IMG/VR virus record: IMGVR_UViG_3300015241_000149
Coordinates: 2,854-66,853 of that record
Direction: 5' to 3' (one strand)
Source of the DNA: a virus
DNA: 64,000 bases
Part shown: piece by piece, positions 146-61,765 of the stretch
How the letters are laid out: each line of letters opens with the position of its first letter
How positions within the stretch are numbered: the stretch's first letter is position 1
The notes under the pieces: model-generated
Told to the model about the DNA's origin: nothing
Databases searched by the model: none
Seen by the model: the letters and a program-made list of their open reading frames with translations, nothing else
Program-made: the position numbers and the translations under genes

Positions 146-871
146 GTGAACGCCGGCGAGACCTACTGGGATGTCCTCCCCGACTACGTCGAGTGCACCG
201 AGTGCGGCCATCCGATCGAATCGCACGACAGGAAGGGCTGTCTCGAGTTGGGAGCGGGAGCATGCAACTGCCCCGAGGGCTTCACCACCGAACAGATCCG
301 TGCCATAAGGAAACAGGAGGGCAAGCCCGCCAAGTACTGACCGGACGCAATACCCCAACCACCGGACCAAGGAGAGAAGCACCGATGACGATGCCGTATG
401 ACCCCGCCGAGAACGAGTGGGTGGCTGAGGTCAATGCCGCCGAGCTGGACCCTGAGCACTATGAGAACTACGGCGAGCGAAACAACCTGTTCCTGCTCGC
501 GCTCGGCACGGTCCTGCGAGGTGAGGCATGAACGAATGGAAACCAGGTGACCCGTTGCCGGGCGTTGAGAGCCAAGGAAGCTGGAGCAATCAACCCATAG
601 TCCAGATCAAAGACTTCGCCAATGACGTAAATACCGAGGTCTCCGGGTACCGCAACACTCAGGACTCGGCCGAAGATCGTCCTTGGTCGTGGCTATGAAC
701 GGCCCGGTCCAGGATCTGCGCTTCGCCAGCGAGCACGACCTGTTGCGGCTGTACAGCGAGTACACGGTAGCTGTGTTCGACGACTCGCAGTCGATCGAGG
801 AGGCGTTGGTGGCGGACCACCGGCTGCGCGCGGTCAACCACGAGCTGTACCGGCGCCGCATCCAGGTCTAG
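146..871 (+). CDS. cluster of four small hypothetical genes (146-340 Cys/His zinc-finger-like, 385-531, 528-698, 695-871)
   Basis: Coupled ATGA/GTGA overlaps; CxxCxH...C...CxC in the first; GGAGAG RBS before 385. Confidence 0.6.
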
Positions 872-2079: not shown

Positions 2080-2108
2080 TTGACAACGACGCCACATACC
2101 GGTAGAGT
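2080..2108 (+). promoter_or_regulatory. SigA-type promoter
   Basis: TTGACA(2080-2085)-17 nt-TAGAGT(2103-2108); shares CGGTAGAGTyCTACyT with the 885 promoter. Confidence 0.75.
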
Positions 2109-4285: not shown

Positions 4286-4289
4286 GCAG

Positions 4290-7569: not shown

Positions 7570-7782
7570 GTTAGGGTCCGCACGGTTCCCGGTTCCCGAT
7601 GGTTCCGGGAACTAACGGGAACCAGTTTAGTTAGGGTAGGCACGGTTCCCGGTTCCCGATGGTTCCCGATGGTTCCCGATGGTTCCCGGAACCGGTTCCC
7701 CGGGGGTACCCTCCGAAGGAGGGGGTACCCCGGAACCGACGTGGGCCCGATTGAAGATCATTTATTCAAGATCCGGGAACCG
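7570..7782. repeat. GGTTCCC/GGGAACC repeat cluster, candidate replication origin
   Basis: About a dozen GGTTCC(C) copies in both orientations, 10-bp-period GGTTCCCGAT run, 60-bp-spaced direct repeat (7570/7630), GGGGTACCC palindrome; just downstream of Prim-Pol gene. Confidence 0.75.
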
Positions 7783-22536: not shown

Positions 22537-22696
22537 TAGGATGTCCCTTGGTCCTCTGGTTGGGGATCTTTGGTAGCCCCCTCCCGTTGAGCTTGTCTCC
22601 AGGAGGGGGCTACCTCTTTTACTCACCGCCCAGGGTCTGGAGGCGGCCTAGCCAGGCTCATCAGCTGTTCAGTCGGGTTCGACTTGTTCAGTGACG

Positions 22697-22731
22697 AGCA
22701 TCTCACGCTGGGGAGCGTGGTGTCAACCTAG
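22697..22731 (-). promoter_or_regulatory. leftward promoter for the early operon, with a structured ~150-nt leader
   Basis: CTAGG-TTGACA-18 nt-GATGCT; leader hairpin GTAGCCCCCTCC/GGAGGGGGCTAC at ~22573-22613. Confidence 0.55.
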
Positions 22732-22825
22732 TACCGCCTGGTCCTTCCACAAGATGCGCGCGCCCGACGGTCGGTATGAGCCGACGGCCGGCATCAGGGT
22801 ACGGCTGTGTGGGTGCGGAGAACGA

Positions 22826-23026
22826 TTACCTAGGCCGACGGGGAGTGCGCTTAGGCGGCGCTAGCTGGCGTTTGAGGTCCGCGACGTCCCAACGGGCGAA
22901 TCCCCCCGGGGTAAACCCGGCTGGCCGCACCCGGCCTTCCACATACCAGCGCCGCAAGGTCTGGGGGGCGACACCAATGGCTCGCGCGGCGGTCTGGGTG
23001 TTGACCCAGGGAGCGGGATCTGTCAT
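22826..23026 (-). CDS. MerR/BldC/Xis-like HTH protein
   Basis: VNTQTAARAIGVAPQTLRRWYVEGRVRP...TPGGFARW; upstream GTTGTGC direct repeats. Confidence 0.85.
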   Translation of the reverse strand: MTDPAPWVNTQTAARAIGVAPQTLRRWYVEGRVRPAGFTPGGFARWDVADLKRQLAPPKRTPRRPR

Positions 23027-24226: not shown

Positions 24227-24738
24227 GCTCTCTGGCGAACGAGGACGGCACCCCGCCGCGCGACGGCCAAGGCAAGTTCATGATCTCTCCGGAGTCCCTG
24301 GAGCGCGATGCCCAGGCCGCCCGGCTGCGAGCCTCTGGTTGGTCGGCAACCCGGGTTTCGAATCACCTGGGCTACGGAAGTCGACAGAACGTGGACCGGG
24401 CCGTCCGGCGCGCCATGGACCGCATCATCGTGCCGGCGATCGAGGAGGCCCGCAAGTTGATGCTGGATTCCATCGCCGAGCAGGCGGAGACGCTCCTGGA
24501 GATCCAGCAGGCGGCCATCGCCGACGGCGACCTGACGGTGTGGCTGCGTTCGGTGGACCAGTTCGGCAAGTTGGATGACCGCAAGGCCCGCCTGCTCGGC
24601 CTGTTCGCCCCCGACAAGATCATGAACCTGAACGGCCGGGGTGAGCCTGAGGTGCCACCGGCACTGATCGAGAACGCCCGCAAGATCGAAGAACAGGCCG
24701 CCAAAGAGGAAGCCGAGCTGAATGGGCGCTCCGACTGA
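24223..24738 (+). CDS. second small terminase-like HTH protein
   Basis: RDGQGKF, RDAQAARLRASGWS...LGYGS..NVDRAV HTH, helical core, RKARLLGL; overlaps the terL-like gene. Confidence 0.7.
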   Translation: MSSLANEDGTPPRDGQGKFMISPESLERDAQAARLRASGWSATRVSNHLGYGSRQNVDRAVRRAMDRIIVPAIEEARKLMLDSIAEQAETLLEIQQAAIADGDLTVWLRSVDQFGKLDDRKARLLGLFAPDKIMNLNGRGEPEVPPALIENARKIEEQAAKEEAELNGRSD

Positions 24739-28762: not shown

Positions 28763-28783
28763 CCCCAAGGACCAGGCCATCCA

Positions 28784-31780: not shown

Positions 31781-31976
31781 GGCCCCTACCAGCGAGAGCG
31801 CACCCGAAGGCGTCTCAATCGCTGGTAGGGGCCGATTCCACGCACCCCCGAGCAGTGGGGCGGTGGCCTGTGGTGGGCGTTACAGTTACTTCTCTCGAGT
31901 CTCCTCGTTGAGCAGGCGGGGAGCAGAGAACACCCCCGGTTGAGCCAGAGTTGTCACTGAGCTCCCGGGGGTGTTT
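31781..31976. terminator. two long hairpins at a convergence point (31781-31833, 31928-31976)
   Basis: GGCCCCTACCAGCGA/TCGCTGGTAGGGGCC and AACACCCCCGG/CCGGGGGTGTT. Confidence 0.65.
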
Positions 31977-45097: not shown

Positions 45098-46737
45098 TAG
45101 CTCGTCACCGCCGGCATGTCTACCTTAACGTAACTTACCTGTAGTTTACGATACTTGACACCGTTGAGCGCCGGATTCAGATCCCAGGTGTAACTAGTGT
45201 CCGAACCAACCGAACCAGGGCCAAACACCATGTAGTGCTGTTCCCCGGTGGGATATTGCAGCAACAACACATGCGTTGATTCGTCCGCTTGCCGGAATGC
45301 CGTGTAGATGGCGGCACCATCCTGAGCTTTGTAAATCAGCTGGAAGGTGCCTTGACGCCCGTAGGTGACGCCCTGCACGACGATGGCGTTCACCTTGGTT
45401 GTACCGGCCAGTGGCAGGAACGTGCCTTGCGATTTCTGAATGGTGACCTGATCGCCCAGGTAGGCCACCGGCAGCATGGTGTTGTTCAGCGGGTTCAGCG
45501 GGTCGATCAGCCAGAACCCGATGCGGGTGGGGGTCGCGGACAAGGTGGCGGAGAACGACGTCGCGGGCACCGCCGGAGCGGAACTGGCGTAGGACAGCAC
45601 CTTGTACTGCGAAGCCACGTTCGGAGGAGCCTCATAGTCATACGCGGTAATCGTCGACATGCCGCTGGCCGCCACGGACATGTAGTTGCGGACGAACCCC
45701 CACGTCGCGCCCAGGTCCCGGGAGACGTAGAAGGCGAACAGGGTGGTCACCGGCGAGCTCGAAGACGGTAGGCAGTCCAGCTGCACCCGGTTGTTGGTGA
45801 CGTCCCAGAACGCATCTGTCAGGGTCGCGGCTGGCGGCGGCGCGGCTACCGCTTGGGTCCAGCTGGTCGACGCCGGTGCCGAGGTGAACGTGCCCAACCC
45901 GGCCCACGCCTGCTGCACCTGCACATAGCCGACATAGCCGCCGTTGATCAGGTCGACGTTGGTGGTGGCCTGGAGGATCTCGGAGAAGACGTAGCCGCCG
46001 CTGGAGTCAGACGACGGGCTCACGAACGGGGTGAACCCACCGATGCCGGCCTGCGCGGTGGTATAGACGGCCCACTGGTACGCCTGCTGGGCGTCGTTCT
46101 GGGAGTTGGCGTAGGTCCAGGTCAGCGTGGGGCGCGCGGTGGTGGTGATCGAACCGGTGGGCGCGGTGACCGTGATGGAGCTCTGCACGCTGTAGGTGAT
46201 GTTGACGTAGAGCTCGGAAATCCGCGACGCGTTGCCGTTGAGGTCGTCGCGGCCGATCTGCTGTTGGTAGTTGTTGAAGCTCCCCACCGTCCACGGGTTG
46301 CCCTGCGGGTCCGTGGTTTCGGTCGGCAGGTCTTGCAGCACCCACGTCGCGGTGGTCGGGTTGCTCGGGGCCGTCCAGCCGAACAGCAGTTCGAAGATTC
46401 CTTGCAGGATCGTGGAGATGATGTTCTGGGACTGGGTGCAGTGGTGCCACCCGACGTGCACCGGTTGGGGCGCCGGCGCGATCACCGACTGAATCCGGAC
46501 CTGCACCCCGACGGAGAAGATCTGCGCACCGGCCGGGATGCTCGGGGCCGGGAACGACACTTTGACCTTTTGGCTGTCGATCCGGCACCTGGTGGTGAAC
46601 TGCACGTAGCTGGCATCGGTGTTGTCCGACCAGGCAGTGTGCGCGTTCGCCGCGCCGACCACCGTTGCCCCACCGAGCGACACCGTGGCGTTCGGGCGGA
46701 TCGTCGTCGTCTGATAACTGGGTGGGGGACTGGTCAC
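45097..46737 (-). CDS. minor tail (distal tail-like) protein
   Basis: Follows tape measure; YDYEAP and WLIDP..P motifs. Confidence 0.75.
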   Translation of the reverse strand: MTSPPPSYQTTTIRPNATVSLGGATVVGAANAHTAWSDNTDASYVQFTTRCRIDSQKVKVSFPAPSIPAGAQIFSVGVQVRIQSVIAPAPQPVHVGWHHCTQSQNIISTILQGIFELLFGWTAPSNPTTATWVLQDLPTETTDPQGNPWTVGSFNNYQQQIGRDDLNGNASRISELYVNITYSVQSSITVTAPTGSITTTARPTLTWTYANSQNDAQQAYQWAVYTTAQAGIGGFTPFVSPSSDSSGGYVFSEILQATTNVDLINGGYVGYVQVQQAWAGLGTFTSAPASTSWTQAVAAPPPAATLTDAFWDVTNNRVQLDCLPSSSSPVTTLFAFYVSRDLGATWGFVRNYMSVAASGMSTITAYDYEAPPNVASQYKVLSYASSAPAVPATSFSATLSATPTRIGFWLIDPLNPLNNTMLPVAYLGDQVTIQKSQGTFLPLAGTTKVNAIVVQGVTYGRQGTFQLIYKAQDGAAIYTAFRQADESTHVLLLQYPTGEQHYMVFGPGSVGSDTSYTWDLNPALNGVKYRKLQVSYVKVDMPAVTS

Positions 46738-49700
46738 CGCTTCTGCCGCCCGACAGAGTTAGCCAGCTTGTCGTTGTTCCGCTTGATCTCCACGCGCATG
46801 GTGTGGGTGATGTCGCGGCCGTCGATGTAGCAATGCACGTGCGTTTCTCCGCCTCCCTGACCGCCTTGGTTCGCCGGCCCGGACGCCGGGGTGATCGGGG
46901 GTGTGCCGGCGATGATCGAGGTGCCACCACCGGCCTGGCCGAGCACCCCCATCTTGGCGAGCATGGCGTCCGCTTCCTTGGTCGCCGCGCTGGCCAGCGA
47001 CAGAGCCGACGTGGTGATGAACCCCAGGGATGAGGTGATGCCGGTGGCCAGGCTCTTACCGAACACCTCCCCGGCACTGGTCGCGGACCCAGCCGCCGCC
47101 GTAGCGCCCTGCGCGGCCGCCTCAACAGTGGATTTGCCCAGGTCAGATGCGGCTTTCTGAGCGCCCTTCGAGCCGTCCTTGATGCCGTTGGCCAGGCCCT
47201 GATCGAAGTCCATACCGGCCTGATGCATGATCACCGATGGGGATTGGCAGCCGAGGGCGCTCTGCGCGGCCTGCGACACCTGATCGCCCATGGACTGCGC
47301 GGCGCTCACCGGCGCCGGGGTGTTCTGCTGGATGCCGTCGGCGCAGCCCTGCGCCATGTCCGAGCCGGCTTGGGTCAACGGCGCCTTGGCGCTCTCCGCC
47401 GCTGACACCGCACCCTGACAACCCGACTCGATCCCGCTCTTGATCTTTTGCCCGCCGGACTGCGCGGCGTCGCCGGCCTGCTTACAGCCGTCCCCGATGC
47501 CTGAGGCAATCTGCTGTCCGCTGGACTCGGCGGCCTGGCCGGCCTCCCGCATGCCCCCTTCGGCCTGTTTCATGATGTCCTTGAGCTGGTTGGTGTCCAG
47601 TCCGGCCTTCTTCGCTTGCCGGCCGAGGCTCTCGAAGTGGTTGCCCGCGTTGCTGGCGGCGTCGCCCGCGCCCTGGAAGCCGCTCTTGGCCGACTGCGCC
47701 GCCTGAGCCGCCTGACCCAGGCCCTGCGCGGCGGATTGCCCGGCCTTATCGGCGCCTTGCTTGACCTTGTTGCCCATCGACGTGCCCGCGTTACCCAGGT
47801 CGTTGAGCGACCCGATCCCCACCCGAGCGCTGCTGGAGATCTTGTTCATGCCCGACTGAACGGAGTTGCCGGCCTTGTCCATGCCCTGCTTAACGCCATT
47901 TGCGGCCTTATCCGCGCCCGCGCTGGCAAGACCGCTGAACTTGTTCATGCCCGACTGCATAGAGCCGTTCATCTTGTTCAGGCCCTGCTTGGTGCCCGAA
48001 TCCATCTTGGCCCAAGCATCGGTTTCGTGGTGCCACATCTTGTCCATGGCCGCGCCGAAGTTACTAACCGCCTTGCCCATCCCCGAGGCAATTTCGGACG
48101 CTATCTTGCCTACCCCACCATGGGCGGCCGCTCCCATTTTTTGGAATCCACGTTCCACGTTGGTCGCCATGCCGTCCATGGTGTCCCTGGCAATGTCGCC
48201 AATCCCGGAAAACCCAGTCTTGGCCCACGCCGACATCGCGTCCATATTGGTTTTCGCATCGGCGGCCATGCCACGGAACACCTTGCCGACAGCGGCCCCC
48301 ATCTTGCCGACCTCGCCGACGACATCGGACGCGGCCTTACCGACTGACTTAGCCGCGTTGGCGACCGACTGGCCGAACTGGTCCGCCGCCTGTTTACCTA
48401 CCCCGAAGCTCTGGGCGGCCTTCGAGACGGCCTGGGCCATCGCGTCGTACGCGGTACTGGCCTGCTTGCTAGCGTCGGCGCCCTTCTTCATGTCGGCGTT
48501 GAAGTTGTTCTGCTCGCGGTCGGCCTCCAGGATGCTGCGCGCGTCCTTGGCTACGGCGGCGGCATGGTCGCGGGCGGCGGCGGCGGCCTTCTGCTGCTCG
48601 GCGGTACCGCTCTCCATCGCCTTGTTGAGCTCATGCTGGGCGTCGTTGAGCTCGGTTTCGCGTTGGTGCAACTGCTTCAGATCCTCGTTGAAGCCCTTCA
48701 CGGAGTTGCCGAGACTGTCGACGGCGCCCTGACCCTGCTTAGCGCCGCCGCCCAGGCCGCCCGGCCCGTTGCCGAGCCCCTTGCCGGCGTCCCCACCCGC
48801 TTTGCCGGTGTCGTTGAGGTCCTTCTGCTTCTGCTTGAGCTCCTTGTCCAGGGCTTGCAGGTTGCCGTCTAGGCCCTGCACCGATTTGCTCAGGTTGTCG
48901 GTCTGGCTGGCCGTCGCCGACATGTCGGAGCCCATCTTGGAGATGGCTTGCCCGGTCGAGCCGGCGGCCTGCCCCAGCTTGGAGATGTCGCCGGTGGCCT
49001 TGGCGACCGCCTTGTCCAGGGCTTCAATGCCGGCGATGGCGGGCTGCATGTCGGCGGCCATGGTCTTGACGCCGCTGTCCAGCGCGGTCAGGTCGCCGGT
49101 GAGGGTCTTAACGTCCTTGTCGAGCTGAACGACGTCCTTGTCGAGCTGGACGACCAGCTTGTCCAGCGCGTCAGTGTCGGTGGCGAGCGCCTTCTCCTCG
49201 GCGTCGAAGTCCTTCAGCGAGGTCACGATCGTCTTGAGCGACGCCACCAACTTCGTGCCCAGCGCGGTGGCCAGGTCGTTCACGGCCTTGACGAGCACGT
49301 TCGTGATGTCGCCAGCCAGCGTCTTCACCATGTCGTCGAGCGACTTGAGCTCGGTCTTGAGCGTGGTGATGGACTGGACCAGCTTGTTCCGTATATCCCC
49401 GTCGACCATCGTCAGAGCACCGTCGAGCTTGGTCTTCAGATCGTCGCCCAAGGTGGTGATCTCGGTGCCCAAGCTCTGCGAGGCGGTGCCCAGGGCATCC
49501 ATCTGGCCAGCGGTGTCCTGCGCGGCACCGCCAGCACTTGCGATCGAGCCTGCCGCCGCCTGGTGCTGAGTACCTGAGGTGGCGGCGGCCGATCCCGCGC
49601 CCTTGTGTGCCTGGGCGGCTTGCTGGTTAGCGGCCGTGTTCTGCTGGAGTGCTTGGGTGTGTTGTTTGGTCGGAGGGACCGCGCCGAGGAAGTCTGAACC

Positions 49701-51803
49701 GTTCTTGGACACCTCGGGGGACAGGTTCTTGATTGCGTTGGTGGCGTCGTCGACCGGCGGCGTGACAGCCTGCATTGAGCCGCCGAACTGCTTCGCGGCC
49801 GCGCCGGCATCGTCAAGCGGCGGTGGGATGCCCTGAACAGTGTTGGACAGGTCTTTGGCTGCGTTGCCGAGCGCACCCATAGCGTCGTTGGTGCCCTTGG
49901 CACTGTCGGTGGCGTCATGCTGCGCGCTGGTGGTACCGAGTAGGCCGTCCTTGAGCCCCTTGAGCGTGTTCACGGTGCCCGACACTGCACCGCCCAGGTC
50001 AGACAACCAGTGCACCCCGACGGAGATGGCGTCCCAGACGACCTTGAACACGTCGGCGAGCTCGTGCATCAACGTGATAAGTCCGGTGATGATGCTAACA
50101 AGCGTATTTATCGAACCAGCCATAAGCGAGAATGCACCCTTGATCAATCCCGCGTTTTGCGCCACTGTCGACGCAATTTCGTCAAAGGCAGGCTTGATCT
50201 GAGCCAATGCGTTAACAAATGCACTGCCGAACGTTGTCGCTATCGAGATGACGTCTTGCAACTCGCCCGAAACAGCCCTAGAAGCCCCGGACACCACGCC
50301 GGAGAACGAGGTAATCTGCTTCTCGCTGTTCCCGATCGCGGCCGTGACCGCCAGCGCCAGGTTGGTGAAGGCAGTCATGGCGGGTTGCACTGCCGGCGCG
50401 AGCTTCTGCGCCATCCCGGTGGCGGCATCCAGGATCTGCGTCATGTCCCGGGAGAACGCCTGGAAGCTCTGACCCCCGATGGTGATCAAGACGGCGCCCA
50501 TCCGGCCCACCGCGCCGATCATGGTGGACACCCCGGCCAGGGCTTTTGTCTGGATGTCGCTGCCCAGATTGGCGAACGCTGTGCTCATTTGCTTGATCGC
50601 GCCTATCCCGGCTTGAACAATGCCGGGCATAGATTGGAAAAACACCTTGAAGCTAGGCGCGAGCGTGTTAGTGATGTCGCGGAAACCATTCGCCAGCTCG
50701 ATCAGGGAAGTGACCGCCGGTTGAATGCCGGTCTTGGCGGCGGCGGCGATAGTTGCAAAGGCTTCCTTAAGCGGCGCGGCAATCTGTGGCAAAGCAGCCC
50801 GTACCGTTCGAATCATCTCATTGATGACCTCATCGAACGGCTTCGCTATGTCGGTAAAGTCCTTCTTGGCCTCGGCGACCAGGTCTTTCCAACCCTGGGC
50901 AATCTGCTTGTTGCCCTTTTCCGCCATGATGGCGAACCCGGTGATCGCCGCGCCGGCCGCCAACATGAGCGCGCCAAAACCGCCGAACGCCACCGCCGCG
51001 ATGACGCCCAGCGCACCAACAGCGGTGCCGAGAGCGCCCATCACCAACGCAGCGATACCACCAACAGTGGCGAAGGTCGTCATTATCCCAATGAGCGCCT
51101 GGAAACCGCCTACCACAGCTCCAATGATGTCGCCGATCGGGCCCAACGCACTCTTCAGGCTGTCAAAAGCATCCACGACCGGCTTGATAACCTCTTGCAA
51201 GTCCTGGAAGACCGCCGTCGTGTTGCCTATCAGCTGGTCCATCGCGGTGACGGTGGATTCGGTGGCTTGAATGCCCGATTCCATGTCCCCGATGCCTTGG
51301 GTGACGTCGGTGATGGCCGTTTCACCCGCGATAAGCCCCTGGTCGAATGCTCCGATGGCCCCAGATGCCGCACCCGCGACAGATACCAGATCTCCGATAG
51401 CGGTGCCCGCGATATTCAGGTCAGACCCGAGCGTCTTGCCATCGTTGTCTAGATTTTTGACGTCATTGGAGAGATTGCCTATAGATTTTCCAGCGGATTC
51501 AGAGTCTCTCTCAGCGGCAGCGACAGCTTTATCAAACTCAGTATTAAAGTCTTGCAGAGCTGTTTTCGCTTCATCAAGTTGCGACTTATCCGTTGTGATC
51601 TTTATCGTTTTATCGCCAACGGCGTCTTCGGCGGTCTTGACTTCGGCCAGCTTAGCGTTGAGGTCGTCCAGCCCCGACGTTTCAACCTTGATGAGGATTG
51701 TCTTGTCGTTGAGCTGGTCGATGGCGGCATTCAGCGCTTCTATCTGCGCGATCGCGTCGGCGGCGTCGGCGTCAATGTGGATGGACATTGAAGAGCTCGC
51801 CAT
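46734..51803 (-). CDS. tape measure protein
   Basis: 1689 aa, Ala/Gly-rich helical, TM segment, downstream of chaperones. Confidence 0.92.
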   Translation of the reverse strand: MASSSMSIHIDADAADAIAQIEALNAAIDQLNDKTILIKVETSGLDDLNAKLAEVKTAEDAVGDKTIKITTDKSQLDEAKTALQDFNTEFDKAVAAAERDSESAGKSIGNLSNDVKNLDNDGKTLGSDLNIAGTAIGDLVSVAGAASGAIGAFDQGLIAGETAITDVTQGIGDMESGIQATESTVTAMDQLIGNTTAVFQDLQEVIKPVVDAFDSLKSALGPIGDIIGAVVGGFQALIGIMTTFATVGGIAALVMGALGTAVGALGVIAAVAFGGFGALMLAAGAAITGFAIMAEKGNKQIAQGWKDLVAEAKKDFTDIAKPFDEVINEMIRTVRAALPQIAAPLKEAFATIAAAAKTGIQPAVTSLIELANGFRDITNTLAPSFKVFFQSMPGIVQAGIGAIKQMSTAFANLGSDIQTKALAGVSTMIGAVGRMGAVLITIGGQSFQAFSRDMTQILDAATGMAQKLAPAVQPAMTAFTNLALAVTAAIGNSEKQITSFSGVVSGASRAVSGELQDVISIATTFGSAFVNALAQIKPAFDEIASTVAQNAGLIKGAFSLMAGSINTLVSIITGLITLMHELADVFKVVWDAISVGVHWLSDLGGAVSGTVNTLKGLKDGLLGTTSAQHDATDSAKGTNDAMGALGNAAKDLSNTVQGIPPPLDDAGAAAKQFGGSMQAVTPPVDDATNAIKNLSPEVSKNGSDFLGAVPPTKQHTQALQQNTAANQQAAQAHKGAGSAAATSGTQHQAAAGSIASAGGAAQDTAGQMDALGTASQSLGTEITTLGDDLKTKLDGALTMVDGDIRNKLVQSITTLKTELKSLDDMVKTLAGDITNVLVKAVNDLATALGTKLVASLKTIVTSLKDFDAEEKALATDTDALDKLVVQLDKDVVQLDKDVKTLTGDLTALDSGVKTMAADMQPAIAGIEALDKAVAKATGDISKLGQAAGSTGQAISKMGSDMSATASQTDNLSKSVQGLDGNLQALDKELKQKQKDLNDTGKAGGDAGKGLGNGPGGLGGGAKQGQGAVDSLGNSVKGFNEDLKQLHQRETELNDAQHELNKAMESGTAEQQKAAAAARDHAAAVAKDARSILEADREQNNFNADMKKGADASKQASTAYDAMAQAVSKAAQSFGVGKQAADQFGQSVANAAKSVGKAASDVVGEVGKMGAAVGKVFRGMAADAKTNMDAMSAWAKTGFSGIGDIARDTMDGMATNVERGFQKMGAAAHGGVGKIASEIASGMGKAVSNFGAAMDKMWHHETDAWAKMDSGTKQGLNKMNGSMQSGMNKFSGLASAGADKAANGVKQGMDKAGNSVQSGMNKISSSARVGIGSLNDLGNAGTSMGNKVKQGADKAGQSAAQGLGQAAQAAQSAKSGFQGAGDAASNAGNHFESLGRQAKKAGLDTNQLKDIMKQAEGGMREAGQAAESSGQQIASGIGDGCKQAGDAAQSGGQKIKSGIESGCQGAVSAAESAKAPLTQAGSDMAQGCADGIQQNTPAPVSAAQSMGDQVSQAAQSALGCQSPSVIMHQAGMDFDQGLANGIKDGSKGAQKAASDLGKSTVEAAAQGATAAAGSATSAGEVFGKSLATGITSSLGFITTSALSLASAATKEADAMLAKMGVLGQAGGGTSIIAGTPPITPASGPANQGGQGGGETHVHCYIDGRDITHTMRVEIKRNNDKLANSVGRQKR

Positions 51804-55807: not shown

Positions 55808-55839
55808 GACGGGCTCCTCTCTTGGACAGCGGGGGACGA

Positions 55840-55878
55840 ACGCAGCCGCGCGGAACCCCGAAAACCGCGCGGCTGCGT
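55840..55878 (-). terminator. hairpin after major capsid gene
   Basis: ACGCAGCCGCGCGG/CCGCGCGGCTGCGT 14-bp stem. Confidence 0.65.
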
Positions 55879-55895: not shown

Positions 55896-57143
55896 TCAGG
55901 TCGCCGGGCTCTTGAACGCCTTCACAGCGGCCGGGTCGTCCGGACGGGCGTCCAGGCGCAGGAAGCCCAGGAATCCGACCTGTAGGAAGTCGGCGTAGCG
56001 CTCCGTGAGCCGCAGCATGTGCACGTCCAGCACCTGACGGATGATGTAGGCGCGCTGGAAGTCGCCGAACAGGATCGACAGGCTGTTCGCCGCCAACGAC
56101 GGCATGCCCTGATCGATCGCGTAGGGCTGGCCGTTGATCGTCGGGCTCATGCCCGGTACCGGAATCGGCACCCAGAGCGGCCGGCCGAACCCGTCAACGA
56201 TCTTCCTGATCACCGCAAGGGTGTTGTCGTTGAGCAGGAAACGGCAGTTCTGCCGGTAGGCCGGGTCGAGCGCGTGCTCCAGGTCGATCAGGTTGTTGTA
56301 GGTCAGCACCCCGATGTTGCCGGCAGTGGGCTGCACAGCGACCGTGACGCCGGTGGTGACGCCGGTGGGCTGACCGCTGCCGGTCCCGTTGATGAAGTGC
56401 TGCGACACCGCGCGACCCAGCCGGATACCGAGGTGCGTCGGCAACCAGGTGTCCAGGTCGAACACCGAGTCCTGCAAGATCTGCAAGGAGGCCAGAACCA
56501 GGTTCGAGGAGTACATGTAGGCCCCGATGGTCCGGGTGCCGAACGTGGTCTCAACCTCGGCGACCTGCGTGTTCTCCCCGATGATCTGGCCAACCTCGGA
56601 GGTGCCGTCGTGGGTGGGCCACTGGAGCGGGTTGCCGGTCGCGGTCTGGATGACGTTGGCGAAGTTGATCAGACCGCCGTACGCCTTCATCGTCTCAACC
56701 AGCACCTGGCGGTAACCCGGCGGAACCAGGTAGCCACCGACGGCGCCCGAAGTGGTGCCCTGCGCGGCGCGGGCATCCATGTAGTGGTTCGCCAGCAGTC
56801 CCCGACGCTCGGGGTTCAGCCCTTCCAGGCCGCCGCGCATGTAGGTGCGGAAGGCGTCCTCGTACTCCACGCCGCGCCGGGCTTCGAGCTCCTCGCGGGT
56901 TTCCTTGCGCTCATCCACGCCGTTGGCGTTGAGCACCCGGGAGTAGTCCGGCGAGTCGAGCTCGGCCATCCGCCGGTTGCGCTCGATCGTGGCGAGCACC
57001 TTGTCCAGGTCAGCGTTGGCCGCGTTCCAGTTGGCGTCCTCCTCGGCGGTGAGATCCCGACCTTCGGCCTTGGCCGTGTCGACGATCTCCTTCATCCTGT
57101 TCCAGATCCGGTGCTGGGGATCCAGCTCGTCGCGCTCACTCAT
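55896..57143 (-). CDS. major capsid protein, HK97 family
   Basis: N-terminal coiled-coil delta domain, GGYLVP, GTGSGQPTG, FGDF..YII, VGF....R.D. Confidence 0.95.
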   Translation of the reverse strand: MSERDELDPQHRIWNRMKEIVDTAKAEGRDLTAEEDANWNAANADLDKVLATIERNRRMAELDSPDYSRVLNANGVDERKETREELEARRGVEYEDAFRTYMRGGLEGLNPERRGLLANHYMDARAAQGTTSGAVGGYLVPPGYRQVLVETMKAYGGLINFANVIQTATGNPLQWPTHDGTSEVGQIIGENTQVAEVETTFGTRTIGAYMYSSNLVLASLQILQDSVFDLDTWLPTHLGIRLGRAVSQHFINGTGSGQPTGVTTGVTVAVQPTAGNIGVLTYNNLIDLEHALDPAYRQNCRFLLNDNTLAVIRKIVDGFGRPLWVPIPVPGMSPTINGQPYAIDQGMPSLAANSLSILFGDFQRAYIIRQVLDVHMLRLTERYADFLQVGFLGFLRLDARPDDPAAVKAFKSPAT

Positions 57144-57208
57144 GGCTGTCCTTTCTCGGGCATGCCACAGGCCCCGCTGGTGTGGCGGGGTAGATGGGTG
57201 TGGGTTGG

Positions 57209-58417
57209 CTACTTCGGAAGGCGGAGCGCGACGCTCAGGGCGCGCATGCGTGCTTCCGCCATCTCCAGCGCCATATGCCGAGTGGTCACGGCCGGCTCGG
57301 TCGGTGCTGGTTGGTGCCCCTGGCCAGTGGTCTCACCCGGCTGGTCAGAGTTCTTGTCGTCGGCGTCGTCATCTGAGACTTGGACACCGAAACGTTTGAG
57401 AGCGGCCTGGATCTTGTCCTTGATCGAAGCAAGCTGCTCAGCGGTGTACAGAGCCGCGTTGCTGGCCTTGTTGATATAGCTCCAGGCCGCCTTGGCGTGC
57501 TCCTTGGTGTCGATGGGGTAGCGTTTTTTTCCATCGGACTGAAGTCCCGGGTCTGCGTAGGCGACATCGCCATAGGGTTTCTTCGGGTCGCGCTCCTCGA
57601 TGCCCAACTCGTCAGCGTTGTCCTCAACAGGCTCAGCGCCGGCGGTCGCGGTGGCCACCAACACGACGGCGTCGGCGTGCGCCCGCTCCACGACGCGCAC
57701 CTTGTCCTTGATCTTGTACCGCAGGTCCAGCTTCCGGGTGAGCCACTCGGGCAGCTCGGGGTCGTCGCCCCGGTCTTCCAGCATCAGTAGCCACTCGGGC
57801 TTGTACCGCTCGATCAGGCTGCGAACGCGTTCCCCACCGGCGGCGTAACGACTGCGCAGCGCGCGCAAGCCGGCGTCGGTCTCCTCATAGGCCGGGAAAG
57901 TCACCGGCGACACCTCGAGGAGCTGCACCTCGTTGACCCGACGCACCTCAACCTCGTGCTGGCCGTCGTCACGGGTGATGGTTTCAGTGGTCCAGGTGTC
58001 CTTGCCGGCCGGCACCCGGAACCCGAAGCTCATCCCGGTGATGTTGCCGTTGCGCAGGTTGATCTTCAGGTCGTTGACGTAGCTCAGCTCGGAGTCTAGA
58101 TCGGCATCGACAGCCAGCCCGCGCACGTCTTGAGTCAGCCGCAGCGTGCCGGCGGAGCGTCGTGCGACCACCTTCGAGCTGTCGTGGTCTATCAGCATCC
58201 GGGCGTCGCCCTCGGAAATCGTCTTAGTGAACGCACCGGGAGCGATTTCCTCGTAAAAACCCCAGGTCAACGGGTTCCCGATGGCGGTCCGGGAGTTGAA
58301 TACCGCCGCATGGCCGCCGAACCGGGGCACAGCGCCCTCGGTGGGGATGATGGCCAGGGCGGCAGCGTCCAGAGACAGGCCGCGACGCTCGTCGGCTACC
58401 GGAAGGCTGCGAGACAT
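57209..58417 (-). CDS. HK97-type prohead protease with extra C-terminal domain
   Basis: GHAAVFNS, E.IAPGAF, DHD, MSFGF, EVSPVTFPAY; later RYPIDTKEHAKAAWSYI. Confidence 0.92.
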   Translation of the reverse strand: MSRSLPVADERRGLSLDAAALAIIPTEGAVPRFGGHAAVFNSRTAIGNPLTWGFYEEIAPGAFTKTISEGDARMLIDHDSSKVVARRSAGTLRLTQDVRGLAVDADLDSELSYVNDLKINLRNGNITGMSFGFRVPAGKDTWTTETITRDDGQHEVEVRRVNEVQLLEVSPVTFPAYEETDAGLRALRSRYAAGGERVRSLIERYKPEWLLMLEDRGDDPELPEWLTRKLDLRYKIKDKVRVVERAHADAVVLVATATAGAEPVEDNADELGIEERDPKKPYGDVAYADPGLQSDGKKRYPIDTKEHAKAAWSYINKASNAALYTAEQLASIKDKIQAALKRFGVQVSDDDADDKNSDQPGETTGQGHQPAPTEPAVTTRHMALEMAEARMRALSVALRLPK

Positions 58418-58437
58418 CGCCGTTCCTCTCGTATGGG

Positions 58438-59685
58438 TCATGAATTCGCTGACGACGGTCCGAGTGAGGTGCTGGTCAGCGCGTTCTCGTTGGCTTGCTG
58501 CGCGGTGACCGAATCCAAGTACTTGTCCCCGCCCTCACGCGGCGGAAGATCTTCATCCTCGCGGATCTCGTTGGCGTTCAAGACACCCATCTCGAACATG
58601 ACCCGGCTCCACTCGGCGCGGGCAATTGAGTCACCGCGCAGCAACTGGCGAATCGAGTACCGGGCTATCAACCCGTCGCCGAGGAGCTCTTTGGTGACCC
58701 GCTGCTCGGTGGTGGCCAGCCAGGTGGGGTGCAGGTCGTACATGACGAACCCCAAGCCCTGCTGCTCCAGGCCGGTACCCCAGGTCGTCGACTTCTCGTG
58801 GTCGAAAAGCAGGAATGGCGGAACGCCGTAGTAGCGCCCGAGCTCGGTGAGCTGGAAACGCCGGCTCTCCAGAAGCTGCGCGTCGTCGTTGGGCATCGTC
58901 AGGCTCTGGAACTTCGCGCCGGAGTCCAGCACGGCCACCCGATGCGCCCGAGCCAGCCCGCCGAGCTTCTCCTGCCATTGCACTTGCAGCTTCTCGGCCT
59001 GCTGTTGGGTCAGCCGCTGCTCGGTCTGCAAGATGCCCGAGGTCAGGTTGCCCGAACCGAACAGGGTTGAGGCGTACTTCTCCGCGCCCAGAGCCAGCCC
59101 GATGCCTTGGCGGGCCATCTTGATGGGGCTCATCCCGCACACGCCGTCGTATCCCAGGCCCGGGAGGTGGAAAATCTCGTTCGAGGTCATCGCGTGGGTG
59201 CGGCCGGCATCGTCGGTGACCTGAAAGACCTTCCCGGACGGGTTCGCCGGCGTCGGCTTGGCCTTTCCGGGGATCACGTGGTTCGGCATGATCGGCATGA
59301 GGTACTGGATGGTGCCGTTGCCCCGTTTGAAGATCTTTTGAGCGTAGAAGTTGCCCCACAGGGTGCGGTGGACGTAGCTCAGCTTCCAGAACTCCAGTGG
59401 GGTCAAATCTGGGTGCGGATTGTCCAGAAGTGAGTGCTCGACGGGCTGTTTGGTGGTCTTGTCGTAGACATTGAGCGGCAAAGCGCCGCCCAGACCCGAA
59501 ATCAGGCTCACACAGCGCCATACCGCCGAGAAATTGAGCGAAGTGAGCTCGGTGACGGCCATCCCGGCGTCGGTTGGTGACCCTCCGAGCACCGAAAGCA
59601 GGCTCAGATCGGTCAGCGGGACGGCCGGATTCTCGATGTTGAGACGCTGCTCGGCGTCGCGCGGGGCCCAACGGAACAGGCTCAC
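58438..59685 (-). CDS. portal protein, HK97 family
   Basis: AVWRCV..IS, GNFY, G.SPI, QLLESRRF, GVPP, NEIR..E.LPP..GGD. Confidence 0.95.
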   Translation of the reverse strand: MSLFRWAPRDAEQRLNIENPAVPLTDLSLLSVLGGSPTDAGMAVTELTSLNFSAVWRCVSLISGLGGALPLNVYDKTTKQPVEHSLLDNPHPDLTPLEFWKLSYVHRTLWGNFYAQKIFKRGNGTIQYLMPIMPNHVIPGKAKPTPANPSGKVFQVTDDAGRTHAMTSNEIFHLPGLGYDGVCGMSPIKMARQGIGLALGAEKYASTLFGSGNLTSGILQTEQRLTQQQAEKLQVQWQEKLGGLARAHRVAVLDSGAKFQSLTMPNDDAQLLESRRFQLTELGRYYGVPPFLLFDHEKSTTWGTGLEQQGLGFVMYDLHPTWLATTEQRVTKELLGDGLIARYSIRQLLRGDSIARAEWSRVMFEMGVLNANEIREDEDLPPREGGDKYLDSVTAQQANENALTSTSLGPSSANS

Positions 59686-59825
59686 CGGCGGGCCGCCGCT
59701 TCACACAGCGCAAGACCCAGTAGTCCAACCAGAGCAATGGCCGCATACGGGCTGATCAACGCCACACCACCCAGCGTGAGCACCACGAAGAACCCTTGCA
59801 GCACGGTCAGGGCCCACTCAGGCAT
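59682..59825 (-). CDS. small 2-TM protein upstream of portal
   Basis: 47-aa hydrophobic ORF read from sequence, GTGA overlap with portal. Confidence 0.65.
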   Translation of the reverse strand: MPEWALTVLQGFFVVLTLGGVALISPYAAIALVGLLGLALCEAAARR

Positions 59826-59857
59826 GCGCTGGCCCCTTCCATGATCGAGTTGTACTA

Positions 59858-59892
59858 CCAGGTTGACAAATGGGGCCTGCGGACCGCATGCT
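59858..59892 (+). promoter_or_regulatory. promoter antisense to the late operon
   Basis: CCAGG-TTGACA(59863)-18 nt-CATGCT(59887). Confidence 0.6.
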
Positions 59893-59898
59893 GTACAA

Positions 59899-60128
59899 GA
59901 TTTCCTTGGTCCGAAATCAACTGAGTGATGTGCAGACAGATGGCCCCCGCTGGCTCTGGGCGGGGGCCATCTTCTATCCTCGGCTCCGGAAAACCCCTGA
60001 TCGGGGATCTCGGGCTACCCGTCCGCCGATCAGGGGTTTTCCGCTGTCTCTGAGTGGGGACTATCCTCGACCTCGGAAAGCCCCTGATCGGGTTCTTGGA
60101 CGCGTCGATCCCGGTCGGGGGTTTTCCG
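59899..60128 (+). ncRNA. four-hairpin non-coding RNA including two repeat units 87 nt apart
   Basis: Stems at 59899-59918, 59938-59972, 59987-60043, 60074-60128; four G-U pairs valid only on + strand. Confidence 0.65.
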
Positions 60129-60130
60129 CG

Positions 60131-61765
60131 TCACCAGATGTTGAAGCCGCCAGTGTCGCCGAACCCGTGACCGTGCTCCAGGGCCCAACCCCGGCCTTCC
60201 AGGGCCAACAACGCGGCCACGAACGGGGAAATGGTCCGCGCGTCCTTGCGCACCACCCGCTGGTAGTACTCCGGCATCCCCGCCGCGCGTTCCTCGGCCG
60301 ACGGGCGGCGCTTGCCGTGCGCCAACGCGGTGGCCGCCGCCGCCCTGGACAGCTCCTCGCAGCCATCGTGGGTGAACATCTCGTTCTCACCCTTGGCCCG
60401 ATGCGCGGTGGTGAACCGCTCGATCACCGCGTCCATCCGAGCTTCGCTGTTCAGCGGGAAGCTCATGATCCGGATCCGCTCCTCGCCCTGGTAGGTGGGC
60501 GGCTGGTCGTAGAGCCCAGACCAGGTGTCGAGCTCGTCTTGCCAACCGTGCGGCGCGGCGAACATCACGATGACGTCGTAGGCGGTGAACGCGTCCTGTA
60601 CCGCCTCGTGCACCTGCGGACGTGGGATAACCCAGTCGGAGGGAGCGCCGATTGGCTTGTCCCACGTCCGCAAGTGGGTGGTGAACCCGTCGGAGAGCCT
60701 TGCCGCCACCAGGGACGTCGAATCCCGGTTCTGCGAGCCGTGAAAGCCGAGCGCGACCTGATCCCCGGGCTTGAGGCTCAACTCGCCCCGGGCCTGCGCC
60801 ACCCACTTGATCATGTCGACCGCGTCGCTACTGCCGACGCTGATTTCGTTGAGGAAGAACCGCCGTGCCTCACCCTCGCCGGTCGCCGGGTCCCGGATCT
60901 CGGCGATGATGCGCTCAGGGCGCACCCAGCCGCCCCGGGAGATGGACGAATCGCCGTAGACGTACTCGACCTCGCGCGACAGGGCCGCGTCGTCATCCAG
61001 GTCGATGCGGCCTCGCGGCGGGCGGTAATCGATGTAGACCCCGGGGGCCTTCGCCTGATACGTCAGCTGCGCGACCGAGCCCTGCCCGGGGTCCCAGGCG
61101 TTGGTGATCTCCAGCCAGCGGCCGTCCATGCCGGCGGCGTTACGTTTCATCGCCCGAGCCATCTTCAACCCACCCGAGGTCTCCGTCATCAGATGCGACT
61201 CGGTGAGGGTGAAAAACGTCAATCGGGCGCCCAATCGAGCCCTCGCGGACGCCGTTACCGGCTCTATTCTCCCGCCATCTGGCAAATTAATTCGGGACTC
61301 TCCAACGTCCAACCCCGGTGTCGAACTGACCGGACCACCGCGCAGCATAGCCACGATTGGCCGGAACGTATTGTCGGTCTGTTCCTCAGCGTTTCCGGCG
61401 CACTGGATCCACGGAGTGGGCATCGGCATTCCGACGGGCTCCCCAGCGGCATCCCAGCCAGCGAAACGGACAGGCCCGAGGGCTTCGGCGCAGACACGAG
61501 CGGCTCCCAGGGGGTCTTTTCCCCACTTCTGGGGTCGAATGAGCGCCGCACCGTAGTACTGGAAGGCCAATGAGCCCATTTCGGGAGTGGCGTCGGGGAT
61601 CAGGCGGTAGGTCTGGAGGATATGGCGCCACATCTCATCGGTAAGCAGATAGGGCCGCCCCTGACGCGTCCCGTCGGGCACGATCAGGTTGTCCTCGATC
61701 CAGTCCCCGACCTCGTACCCCAGGCTCGGGTACTCGCCCTTACGTCTCGGACCACGCCAGGGCAC
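60131..61765 (-). CDS. large terminase subunit (canonical position) with degenerate nuclease motifs
   Basis: RPQKWGKDP Walker A, EEQTDNTF, ITNAWDPG, RRFFLN; GFHGS / FAAP / TISP where Asp is expected. Confidence 0.9.
   Translation of the reverse strand: MPWRGPRRKGEYPSLGYEVGDWIEDNLIVPDGTRQGRPYLLTDEMWRHILQTYRLIPDATPEMGSLAFQYYGAALIRPQKWGKDPLGAARVCAEALGPVRFAGWDAAGEPVGMPMPTPWIQCAGNAEEQTDNTFRPIVAMLRGGPVSSTPGLDVGESRINLPDGGRIEPVTASARARLGARLTFFTLTESHLMTETSGGLKMARAMKRNAAGMDGRWLEITNAWDPGQGSVAQLTYQAKAPGVYIDYRPPRGRIDLDDDAALSREVEYVYGDSSISRGGWVRPERIIAEIRDPATGEGEARRFFLNEISVGSSDAVDMIKWVAQARGELSLKPGDQVALGFHGSQNRDSTSLVAARLSDGFTTHLRTWDKPIGAPSDWVIPRPQVHEAVQDAFTAYDVIVMFAAPHGWQDELDTWSGLYDQPPTYQGEERIRIMSFPLNSEARMDAVIERFTTAHRAKGENEMFTHDGCEELSRAAAATALAHGKRRPSAEERAAGMPEYYQRVVRKDARTISPFVAALLALEGRGWALEHGHGFGDTGGFNIW

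What the first reader, a model, noticed from the sequence alone, without database searches (positions are those of the whole stretch)
59858..60128. Antisense multi-hairpin RNA whose loops match ribosome-binding regions of capsid and early genes
Seen: a + strand promoter (TTGACA-18-CATGCT) puts the start at ~59899, the first base of hairpin 1. Four hairpins follow, and all four wobble pairs are G-U only on the + strand. Hairpin 1 TCCTTGGTCCG is complementary to CGGACCAAGGA at 363-373 (RBS of gene 385), and CCTTGGTCC to the leader of the first early gene (22546-22554). TCTCGGGC (60008-60015) is complementary to GCCCGAGA abutting the major capsid SD (57154-57161). TCTTGGAC (60094-60101) is complementary to GTCCAAGA abutting the SD of the next gene (55820-55827). 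Known: P1 c4 and P4 CI RNAs regulate through short loop-target pairing. Inference: a multi-guide translational silencer or immunity RNA. Caveat: matches are only 8-11 nt, CCRAG is common before SDs, and TCTCGGGC may be partly paired.
Basis: partly seen in the sequence, partly recalled or inferred. Interest (0 to 1): 0.85.

Follow-up and report, generated by a model that had tools for sequence, protein, structure and literature searches.

The report
Possible antisense small RNA gene in phage
A 300-base insert between the terminase and portal genes of an uncultured soil phage looks like a small RNA gene on the opposite strand, whose first hairpin loop could mask the ribosome-binding sites of three non-structural genes; the other claimed targets, including the capsid gene, are chance matches.

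Summary
The sequence features are real. The four-guide silencer reading holds for one hairpin only. Window 59826-60130 is a lineage-specific insert between TerL and a 47-aa ORF/portal in the - strand late operon of a 66.8-kb actinophage-like virus record. None of 12 relatives has it, and one relative lineage carries an opposite-strand tRNA-Met in the same slot.

On the + strand, TTGACA-18-CATGCT belongs to a repeated intergenic motif family. It twins the promoter at 22726-22697 and puts the start at the base of hairpin H1. H2 is terminator-like and shows one compensatory pair change in a ~96% variant. All G-U pairs fall on the + strand.

The H1 loop is complementary over 12, 11 and 9 nt to a repeated Shine-Dalgarno motif before three genes: a RuvB-like ATPase, a 48-aa ORF and the leader of the 22726 operon. 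No shuffle matched this (0 of 1000).

The H3 and H4 matches to the capsid gene and its neighbour are at chance level. H3 and H4 are a copy-number-variable duplication with conserved stems and diverged loops, so they are probably terminators or insulators.

There is no RNA evidence, no deep homologue and no integrase. Best reading, with confidence about 0.4: a + strand sRNA with one seed. Interest is moderate.

The parts
59826..60130 (.). Lineage-specific intergenic insert between the TerL stop (60131) and the start of the 47-aa ORF (59825)
   Evidence: In 9 of 12 relatives the TerL stop is followed within about 15 nt by the small ORF.
59856..59868 (+). Extended -35 element TACCAGGTTGACA, member of a repeated intergenic motif family
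   Evidence: 7 matches at <=2 mismatches against 0.61 expected, 0 of 100 shuffles. 6 of the 7 are intergenic, and one more copy lies left of the window. TTGACA is the most intergenic-enriched hexamer, 11 of 21 copies.
59887..59892 (+). -10-like CATGCT, 18 nt after TTGACA; predicted start 59899-59900
   Evidence: Twin TTGACA-18-GATGCT at 22726-22697 (-). The start offset is calibrated on leaderless promoters of the same genome. Inference only, no RNA data.
59899..59918 (+). H1: 6-bp stem with 8-nt loop CUUGGUCC, the putative seed
   Evidence: Complement of CGGACCAAGGA(A). Unchanged in the X2 variant.
59938..59972 (+). H2: 13-bp GC-rich hairpin, terminator-like, with tail TCTTCTATCC on the + strand
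   Evidence: Compensatory change T59941A with A59969T in X2.
59987..60043 (+). H3: 18-bp perfect hairpin (A-tract, GC stem, T-tract), first copy of an 85-87-nt tandem unit
60075..60128 (+). H4: second copy; 19 bp with 3 G-U on + (A.C on -); ends 2 nt from the TerL stop codon
   Evidence: Single-copy forms occur in X2 and X4.
59841..59869 (-). Promoter-like TTGTCA-17-GATCAT facing the 47-aa ORF and portal, back-to-back with the + strand -35
   Evidence: 9 of 12 consensus matches. Function not shown.
362..373 (+). Target motif copy CCGGACCAAGGA covering the SD of the 48-aa ORF at 385-531
   Evidence: duplex -24.0 kcal/mol. The region is unstructured.
22545..22556 (-). Target motif copy (AGAGGACCAAGG) before ATG 22536, in the leader transcribed from the promoter at 22726-22697
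   Evidence: -19.9 kcal/mol.
22697..22726 (-). Twin promoter TTGACA-18-GATGCT at the head of the - strand non-structural operon
59682..59825 (-). 47-aa hydrophobic ORF conserved before the portal gene in relatives
60131..61765 (-). Terminase large subunit
   Evidence: phrog_19179, E = 2.4e-59.

Best explanation
The insert is a small, self-contained transcription unit on the + strand, antisense to the late operon. A host-type promoter (TACCAGGTTGACA, 18 nt, CATGCT) starts an RNA at about 59899-59900. The RNA opens with hairpin H1 and ends at H2 (about 80 nt), or at the H3/H4 hairpins behind it (up to about 230 nt). H1 displays CUUGGUCC in its loop. Together with the adjoining stem bases, this pairs over 9-12 nt with the motif CGGACCAAGGA(A), which overlaps the Shine-Dalgarno sequence of three non-structural genes: a RuvB-like AAA+ ATPase left of the window, the 48-aa ORF at 385, and the first ORF or leader of the operon driven by the twin promoter at 22726. 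Pairing would hide the ribosome-binding site and lower translation. H3 and H4 are not guides. They are one structural hairpin, duplicated in this strain, that folds well only as + strand RNA. It probably stops + strand transcription from running antisense into TerL while still letting the late - strand transcript through. Shown: the sequence anatomy, the statistics, strain-level conservation and one compensatory change. Inferred: transcription, RNA ends, pairing in vivo and the effect on translation.
For: (1) Promoter. TTGACA is the most intergenic-enriched hexamer of the genome: 11 of 21 copies lie in the 9.4% of the genome called non-coding. The 13-mer around it has 7 copies at <=2 mismatches against 0.61 expected. 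TTGACA-18-sATGCT occurs exactly twice, here and at the head of the 22726 operon. (2) Start position. The -10-to-start distance read from leaderless promoters in this genome puts the start at the base of H1. (3) Strand. There are 5 G-U pairs in the + folds and 0 in the - folds. H4 folds at -38.7 kcal/mol on + against -26.5 on -. The H2 tail passes the terminator scan on + only. (4) The ~96% variant in run X2 leaves the -35, the -10 and all 20 nt of H1 unchanged. It has 3 changes in the promoter spacer, 3 just before H1, and a compensatory T-A to A-T pair in H2. (5) The H1 complement to three start regions is 12, 11 and 9 nt, reached by 0 of 1000 shuffles. Duplex energies are -24.0, -23.6 and -19.9 kcal/mol against -16.7 for the next best of 135, reached by 0 of 300 shuffles. 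The duplexes cover about -22 to -10 relative to the start codons, and two of the sites are unstructured. (6) The same slot holds an opposite-strand tRNA-Met in L003/L008, so independent RNA genes on this strand are tolerated there.
Against: There is no RNA evidence. No homologue was found beyond strain level, so loop and target covariation could not be tested. CATGCT matches the -10 consensus at 3 of 6 positions, and the generic scan preferred a - strand site. The TACCAGGTTGACA family could be an operator for a phage regulator rather than, or as well as, a -35: only 3 of its 6 intergenic copies have nAnnnT at 17-18 nt. 11-nt complements between non-coding DNA and some start region are common (62 of 11,400 positions x strands), and the three targets are copies of one motif, so they count as one event. 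H1 read on the - strand could simply be a fourth sense copy of that motif. The strand evidence is thin: 3-5 wobble pairs gives P of about 0.03-0.125, they are partly inherited together, and the H2 tail differs by 5 against 4 T in 8. Zero changes in about 40 constrained nt at about 6.7% divergence has P of about 0.06, and up to 2 X2 differences in 59495-60020 were not listed. Gene starts come from my own crude caller.
Confidence: 0.4

Rival explanations
1. The hairpins act on the - strand late mRNA. They would be intercistronic terminators, attenuators, 3' stabilisers or RNase III-type processing sites just after TerL, with a new internal promoter (TTGTCA-17-GATCAT) re-starting transcription for the 47-aa ORF, portal, protease and capsid.
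For: H4 begins 2 nt after the TerL stop. H3 is symmetric, at -44.5 against -45.2 kcal/mol. The genome has other perfect intergenic hairpins inside - strand operons, for example 55840-55878 just after the capsid gene and 31781-31833. The consensus scan lists the - strand promoter-like site. The compensatory change in H2 supports structure on either strand.
Against: All wobble pairs become A.C mismatches on the - strand, also in the single-copy X2 form. Terminators upstream of the most abundant virion genes are counter-intuitive. In 9 of 12 relatives the TerL stop runs straight into the small ORF, with no insert. The - promoter would leave a leader of only about 8 nt that cuts into the SD. This reading does not explain H1's match to three start regions.
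Confidence: 0.25
2. The key parts are protein-binding sites, not an RNA gene. TACCAGGTTGACA would be an operator or stoperator-like site for a phage regulator placed inside the late operon. GGACCAAGGA (H1 read on the - strand, plus the three start regions) would be the site of a translational repressor or another RNA-binding factor.
For: The 13-mer family is repeated in intergenic DNA in several registers relative to neighbouring genes. At the left end and at 27930 it overlaps -10 or -35 elements of oppositely oriented leaderless genes. In 5 of 6 copies the motif points against a local transcription unit (my reading). The 9-mer GGACCAAGG occurs 5 times in the genome, always on a locally sense strand.
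Against: No repressor, integrase or RNA-binding protein was identified. H1 lacks the CCCCAACCA half of the motif that the three start regions share, and no usable start codon follows it. In X2 the TTG after it is lost, and both codons changed in the short - strand ORF are non-synonymous (read by hand).
Confidence: 0.15
3. The insert is a neutral recombination scar or remnant, for example of a lost RNA gene or small mobile element, with no present function. The H1 match is coincidence.
For: It is absent from all 12 relatives. Hairpin copy number varies between near-identical strains. The slot is variable, holding a tRNA in L003/L008 and an extra ORF in L007. 11-nt complements to start regions are common.
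Against: A compensatory change maintains H2, and stems are conserved while loops diverge. The promoter motif belongs to a significant family. H1 hits a repeated motif at P < 0.001 conditional on H1. No other copy of the hairpin arms exists in the genome.
Confidence: 0.12
4. One reading: one RNA with four guide loops that silences capsid, the next late gene and early genes, or acts as an immunity RNA.
For: The 8-nt complements exist next to the SDs of genes 57143 and 55807. The two 8-mers are positional homologues in the H3 and H4 loops.
Against: The matches are at chance level, P = 0.105 and 0.41. TCTCGGGC is partly paired. The X2 variant carries only the H3-type loop and X4 only the H4-type. 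No integrase was found.
Confidence: 0.05

Closest known systems
P1/P7 c4 antisense RNA (and, from recall, the P4 CI RNA)
   Same: A small phage RNA whose hairpin loops carry short sequences complementary to target mRNA around a ribosome-binding site, blocking translation. This comes from passages of the review PMC12197685 seen. The P4 CI RNA is recalled only.
   Different: c4 serves immunity of temperate enterobacterial phages by controlling an antirepressor. By my recall, not checked in any call, c4 is made from the same operon transcript as its targets. Here the targets lie 37-61 kb away in other operons, no integrase or antirepressor was found, only one loop has a credible target, and no Rfam family matched.
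Start-associated sequences (SAS) of Cluster K mycobacteriophages
   Same: A short asymmetric repeat that includes the SD core, sits a few bases before start codons of non-structural genes, and has an unknown ligand. [quoted passage not shown]
   Different: The sequence differs: the SAS consensus has 0 matches at <=2 mismatches in the window. There are only 3-4 copies here against the averages reported per Cluster K genome, 9.08 even in the SAS-poor subcluster K4 (PMC12699233 passages). The phage is not a Cluster K relative, with TerL at most about 40% identical to any isolate.
Highly expressed intergenic non-coding RNAs of actinophages (Rhodococcus phage WC1 nc_1-3; D29 and Kampy are cited there)
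   Same: Actinophage intergenic regions that give abundant non-coding transcripts of unknown function (PMC10986025 passages).
   Different: Those were found by RNA-seq, and the passages I saw name no targets. No sequence comparison was made here. This one is predicted from sequence only.
Intrinsic (rho-independent), partly bidirectional terminators
   Same: H2 is a GC-rich stem followed by a T-rich tail. H3 and H4 have an A-tract, a GC stem and TTTT. An unrelated Sphingomonas hairpin of the same shape turned up by chance.
   Different: The H3 and H4 loops are 17-21 nt with inner pairing, longer than usual, and the tails hold only 4 T.
Opposite-strand tRNA gene in the same TerL / small-ORF slot of related phages
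   Same: An RNA gene transcribed against the late operon at exactly this junction (L003/L008).
   Different: No tRNA or tmRNA was detected in the insert, and there is no Rfam tRNA match.

Membership tests
c4 / CI-type phage antisense immunity RNA | Hairpin loops complementary to repeated target sites overlapping an RBS | tested here: met
   Met for H1 only. The H3 and H4 loops are at chance level.
c4 / CI-type phage antisense immunity RNA | RNA and its targets lie in one operon or transcript (feature recalled, not read here) | tested here: not met
   The targets are at genome 1092-1103, window 362-373 and 22545-22556, in other operons and on either strand.
c4 / CI-type phage antisense immunity RNA | Immunity context of a temperate phage (antirepressor control) | tested here: not met
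   No PF00589 or PF00239 match in the 97%-complete record. The targets are a RuvB-like ATPase and unknown small ORFs.
c4 / CI-type phage antisense immunity RNA | Sequence and structure homology to the curated RNA family | tested here: not met
   No Rfam match at gathering score in the window. No c4-like family appears among the 12 matches at E <= 10 in 59700-60250.
Intrinsic terminator | GC-rich stem, short loop, T-rich tail | tested here: met
   H2 on the + strand passes the scan with tail TCTTCTATCC. The - strand tail has 4 T in 8, just below the scan's threshold.
Intrinsic terminator | The same features, for H3 and H4 | tested here: inconclusive
Cluster K start-associated sequences | 13-bp consensus within 2 mismatches, close to start codons | tested here: not met
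   0 matches in the window. The local motif is a different sequence.
6C RNA (Rfam RF01066) | Score at or above the gathering threshold | tested here: not met
   20.3 bits against 47, E = 2.6, on H2 only.
tRNA / tmRNA | Cloverleaf detected by ARAGORN | tested here: not met
   The only tRNA in the window is tRNA-Ser at 4289-4364.
Trans-acting base-pairing sRNA (generic) | Own promoter, seed, terminator, and a detectable transcript | tested here: inconclusive
   Promoter, seed and terminator are predicted. The transcript is not testable: no RNA holder was listed.
Cluster A stoperator-like operator sites | Asymmetric ~13-bp repressor sites in intergenic DNA, oriented with transcription (feature recalled) | not testable with these tools
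   A 13-mer family exists, but no repressor was identified. Binding cannot be tested in silico.

The most novel reading that the evidence does not exclude
The RNA is the trans-acting ligand of a start-associated motif. A phage sRNA, made from the same promoter type as the operon it targets, uses a 5' hairpin loop to mask a repeated SD-embedded motif on several non-structural mRNAs. Late in infection, read-through of the late operon produces the perfect complement of the sRNA, including a sense copy of the motif in H1. That complement acts as a sponge or RNase III trigger that lifts or resets the repression. If so, this would be the first RNA partner for start-associated sequences in actinophages, whose ligand has been an open question since 2011 (PMC3203893).
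Probability: 0.25. Interest if true: 0.7.

Novelty: new variant of a known kind. Interest (0 to 1): 0.45.

Why it matters
Base-pairing sRNAs of phages are known mostly from enterobacterial model phages. The 2025 review I searched by term does not contain the word stem 'actinobacteri' at all. Actinophages do show abundant intergenic RNAs of unknown role (PMC10986025) and repeated start-associated motifs with no known ligand (PMC3203893). A compact case in which a predicted sRNA seed matches a repeated SD motif gives a directly testable link between those two observations. The test needs one RNA, three leaders and compensatory mutations. If it fails, the locus is simply a variable intergenic slot with terminator hairpins.

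Tried and rejected
Homologue searches
- Rfam gave nothing at gathering score over the window. At E <= 10 over 59700-60250 there were only 12 sub-threshold matches.
- DNA search of phage isolates with 59700-60300 gave no match.
- An exact hairpin-arm pattern in viral contigs gave one hit, L011, inside a 1169-aa ORF with no partner arm, so chance.
- A degenerate arm pattern in genome contigs gave 120 stretches, each listed row with a single match, across unrelated phyla.
- A two-arm regex over all 262 stored loci found only the window's own copies and an unrelated Sphingomonas hairpin.
- The insert against 401 Actinomycetota genomes gave 3 weak hits of 29-37 nt (E = 4.5e-4 to 8.2e-4 per genome), which I take as chance. 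It gave 0 of 3 in G001-G003.
- The target motif in viral contigs gave one coding hit, L142.
- A 14-mer of H1 gave 116+ chance hits. Only L217 extends to 18 nt, and it lies in a coding region of a lower-GC phage.
- The target motif at <=3 mismatches in four related records gave one 3-mismatch hit, in G406. L132's record was not held.
- The metagenome scan with the portal protein gave 9 loci. L136 is an indel-ridden copy of this same element and adds nothing. L132-L135 lack the insert. L137-L140 were too distant and were not examined.

Expression
- No RNA holder was listed. All four runs laid were DNA contigs, so nothing can be said about transcripts.
- Parts without cover in X3 and X4 are not interpreted.

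Coding readings rejected
- The + ORF 59870-61573 is the usual antisense ORF of a high-GC gene. The 1-nt deletion at 59961 in X2 would shift its frame.
- The 24/27-codon - strand ORF after H1 loses its TTG in X2, and the two codons changed there both change the residue (read by hand).

Other
- Pfam and PHROGs gave no regulator near the motif sites.
- Supplementary files of papers were not opened. Figures S3 and S4 of PMC3203893 and the supplementary tables of PMC12699233, which list the SAS sites, may bear on the comparison.

Full report
CONTEXT. The window is bases 2854-66853 of a 66,853-bp virus record that CheckV rates 97% complete. The - strand from about 63.8 kb down to about 31.3 kb carries the virion module. 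It holds terminase large subunit 60131-61765, a 47-aa hydrophobic ORF 59682-59825, portal 58438-59685, protease 57209-58441, major capsid protein 55896-57143 and tape measure 46734-51803. TerL is at most about 40% identical to that of any phage isolate, and all hits are actinophages. The runs that hold the DNA are soil metagenomes. The finding therefore sits in a 305-bp non-coding gap (59826-60130) inside the late operon, and the proposed RNA would be antisense to that operon.

THE GAP IS AN INSERT. I compared eight IMG/VR relatives (TerL 60-65% identical) and four metagenome relatives (portal 53-67%).
- In nine (L004, L005, L006, L009, L010, L132, L133, L134, L135) the TerL stop is followed within about 15 nt by the small hydrophobic ORF.
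- L003 and L008, identical over the stretch shown, carry a tRNA-Met on the strand opposite to TerL in exactly this slot.
- L007 has an extra ORF there.
- None of the 12 has the hairpins. L136 is an indel-ridden copy of this same phage.
- No copy of the element was found anywhere else, and Rfam has nothing.
So there is no deep comparative evidence. The slot is, however, one where an independent RNA gene on the antisense strand is tolerated.

ANATOMY. The parts are as follows.
- H1 59899-59918: 6 bp with loop CTTGGTCC.
- H2 59938-59972: 13 perfect GC-rich bp.
- H3 59987-60043: 18 perfect bp.
- H4 60075-60128: 19 bp.
H3 and H4 belong to an 85-87-nt tandem duplication. Both have the form A-tract, GC stem, TTTT. 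The region folds far better than shuffles on either strand. The strands are not equivalent, though. The + folds contain 5 G-U pairs and the - folds none. H4 drops from -38.7 to -26.5 kcal/mol on the - strand. The H2 tail passes the terminator scan on + only, and only narrowly, with 5 against 4 T in 8.

STRAIN VARIANTS (DNA contigs only). X1 is probably the source. X3 is identical over 59989-60145.

X2 is a ~96% variant with a single long hairpin. It has the H3 5' arm and loop joined to an H4-type 3' arm, which leaves two U.G pairs on + that are A.C on -. X4 also has a single copy, of H4 type: its contig joins the end of H2 directly to 60061. So H3 and H4 are two allelic forms of one hairpin, placed in tandem in this strain. 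Their stems differ at 3 positions, each of which keeps pairing on + only. Their loops have diverged (GGATCTCGGGCTACCCGTCCG against GTTCTTGGACGCGTCGATC). That pattern points to selection on the stem, not on a loop guide.

In X2 the -35, the -10 and all of H1 are unchanged. The spacer has 3 changes (59878, 59879, 59882), and the three bases before H1 change (59896-59898). H2 carries T59941A with A59969T, a compensatory pair, and loses two pairs at its top (59960, 59961). Up to 2 further X2 differences in 59495-60020 were not listed. Zero changes in about 40 predicted-constrained bases at about 6.7% local divergence has P of about 0.06, which is suggestive only.

PROMOTER. The generic scan did not list TTGACA-18-CATGCT, since the -10 matches 3 of 6, and listed a - strand TTGTCA-17-GATCAT instead. 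Evidence from within the genome is stronger.
- With my own gene calls (90.6% coding), TTGACA is the most intergenic-enriched of all hexamers with at least 8 copies, at 11 of 21.
- The 13-mer TACCAGGTTGACA has 7 copies at <=2 mismatches against 0.61 expected, with 0 of 100 shuffles reaching 7. Six of the 7 are intergenic, and an eighth copy lies left of the window.
- TTGACA-N16-19-nATGCT occurs exactly twice: here, and at 22726-22697 (-), at the head of the - strand non-structural operon.
- Three other promoters, TTGACA-17-GGTAGAGT, precede genes in the left arm. Two of them, plus two further TAGACT sites, place an ATG 6-8 nt after the -10, which indicates leaderless mRNAs. The same offset puts the start here at 59899-59900, the first bases of H1.
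The caveat is that the 13-mer family could be an operator. Only 3 of its 6 intergenic copies have nAnnnT at 17-18 nt, and at two sites it overlaps promoter elements of oppositely oriented genes.

TARGETS. I tested them against 135 start regions (-35..+10).
- H1 has perfect complements of 12 nt (the RuvB-like AAA+ gene at genome 1114; Pfam RuvB_N E = 5.8e-34), 11 nt (the 48-aa ORF at 385) and 9 nt (ATG 22536 in the leader of the 22726 operon).
- None of 1000 shuffles reaches this.
- These three are the top three duplexes, at -24.0, -23.6 and -19.9 kcal/mol against -16.7 for the next. None of 300 shuffles matches the best or the third-best energy.
- The three sites are copies of one ~22-nt motif, (GAT)CCCCAACCA-nn(n)-GGACCAAGG, that ends in the SD. 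H1 shares only the 12-nt core.
- Genome-wide, 62 of 11,400 non-coding 11-mer positions x strands have a complement in some start region elsewhere, so a single 11-mer match is ordinary. Only two loci hit two start regions, apart from the antisense strands of the motif copies themselves. H1 is one of them.
- The H3 and H4 8-mers are at chance level, P = 0.105 and 0.41, and TCTCGGGC is half paired.

READING. The best-supported model is a + strand sRNA gene consisting of a promoter, the 5' seed hairpin H1, the terminator H2, and H3/H4 as a back-up or insulating terminator that is strong on + and weakened on -. Repression of the three motif-bearing genes by SD masking is inferred, not shown.

No tyrosine or serine recombinase was found, so an immunity role has no support. 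The rivals are late-mRNA hairpins with an internal promoter, protein-binding sites, and a neutral scar. Each is weighed in its own section. The full four-guide model is unlikely.

COMPARISON. The mechanism resembles P1/P7 c4 RNA, with loop sequences pairing around an RBS (PMC12197685 passages). The locus fails the membership features of that family. The target motif resembles Cluster K start-associated sequences in position and in embedding the SD, but it is a different sequence. Abundant actinophage intergenic RNAs of unknown role are on record (PMC10986025 passages). The cabRNA paper (PMC10686824) was seen only in a search listing.

VERDICT. If real, this is a new variant of a known kind, a phage base-pairing sRNA, in an uncultured actinophage lineage. 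Confidence in the full best model is about 0.4, and about 0.6 that some + strand RNA is made here. Interest is 0.45.

Noticed in passing
window 24722-26317 (+): There is a second terminase-large-subunit-like gene (phrog_38, E = 7.4e-52, with no Pfam hit), far from the virion module and on the other strand, next to a 171-aa protein matching a PHROG labelled RNase E (24223-24738). This is odd for a 67-kb phage. It could be a satellite-like or mosaic module, or a diverged nuclease/ATPase.
   Followed up: partly
window 7580-7690: Four tandem copies of a 10-nt unit (CCCGATGGTTC, 7595-7685) and a 60-nt direct repeat (7580/7640) lie in the 353-bp gap upstream of the prim-pol gene 7766-9793 (-). They look like iterons of a replication origin.
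   Followed up: no
window 33534-33900: About 5-6 tandem copies with a 60-nt period lie within or just upstream of the long - strand ORF 31984-33987. These would be 20-aa repeats if translated.
   Followed up: no
genome 2325-2354 (window -528), window 885-913 and 2080-2108 (+): These form a promoter family TTGACA-17-GGTAGAGT. The first two are followed 7 nt later by ATGACAAC, which suggests leaderless mRNAs. Similar TAGACT-to-ATG spacing occurs at genome 92 and at window 27902 (-).
   Followed up: partly
window 22736-22746 (-), 28767-28777 (+), and the start region of gene 55523 (-): A second repeated 11-mer, AAGGACCAGGC, resembles the H1 target core (GGACCA). One copy lies just upstream of the -35 at 22726 and two lie in start regions.
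   Followed up: no
window 22572-22614 (-) and 55840-55878: These are other long perfect intergenic hairpins. One has a 13-bp stem and lies in the leader just before the 22545-22556 motif copy. The other has a 14-bp stem and lies right after the capsid gene.
   Followed up: no
L003 4618-4694 and L008 1347-1423: A tRNA-Met (CAT) lies on the strand opposite to TerL, filling the TerL / small-ORF junction of a related phage. It is preceded by a TGATAAAAT extended -10-like sequence.
   Followed up: partly
window 22826-23026 (-): A 66-aa MerR/excisionase-type HTH protein lies in the divergent control region (PHROG E = 6.3e-07; Pfam hits below cut-off), yet no integrase was found in the record.
   Followed up: partly
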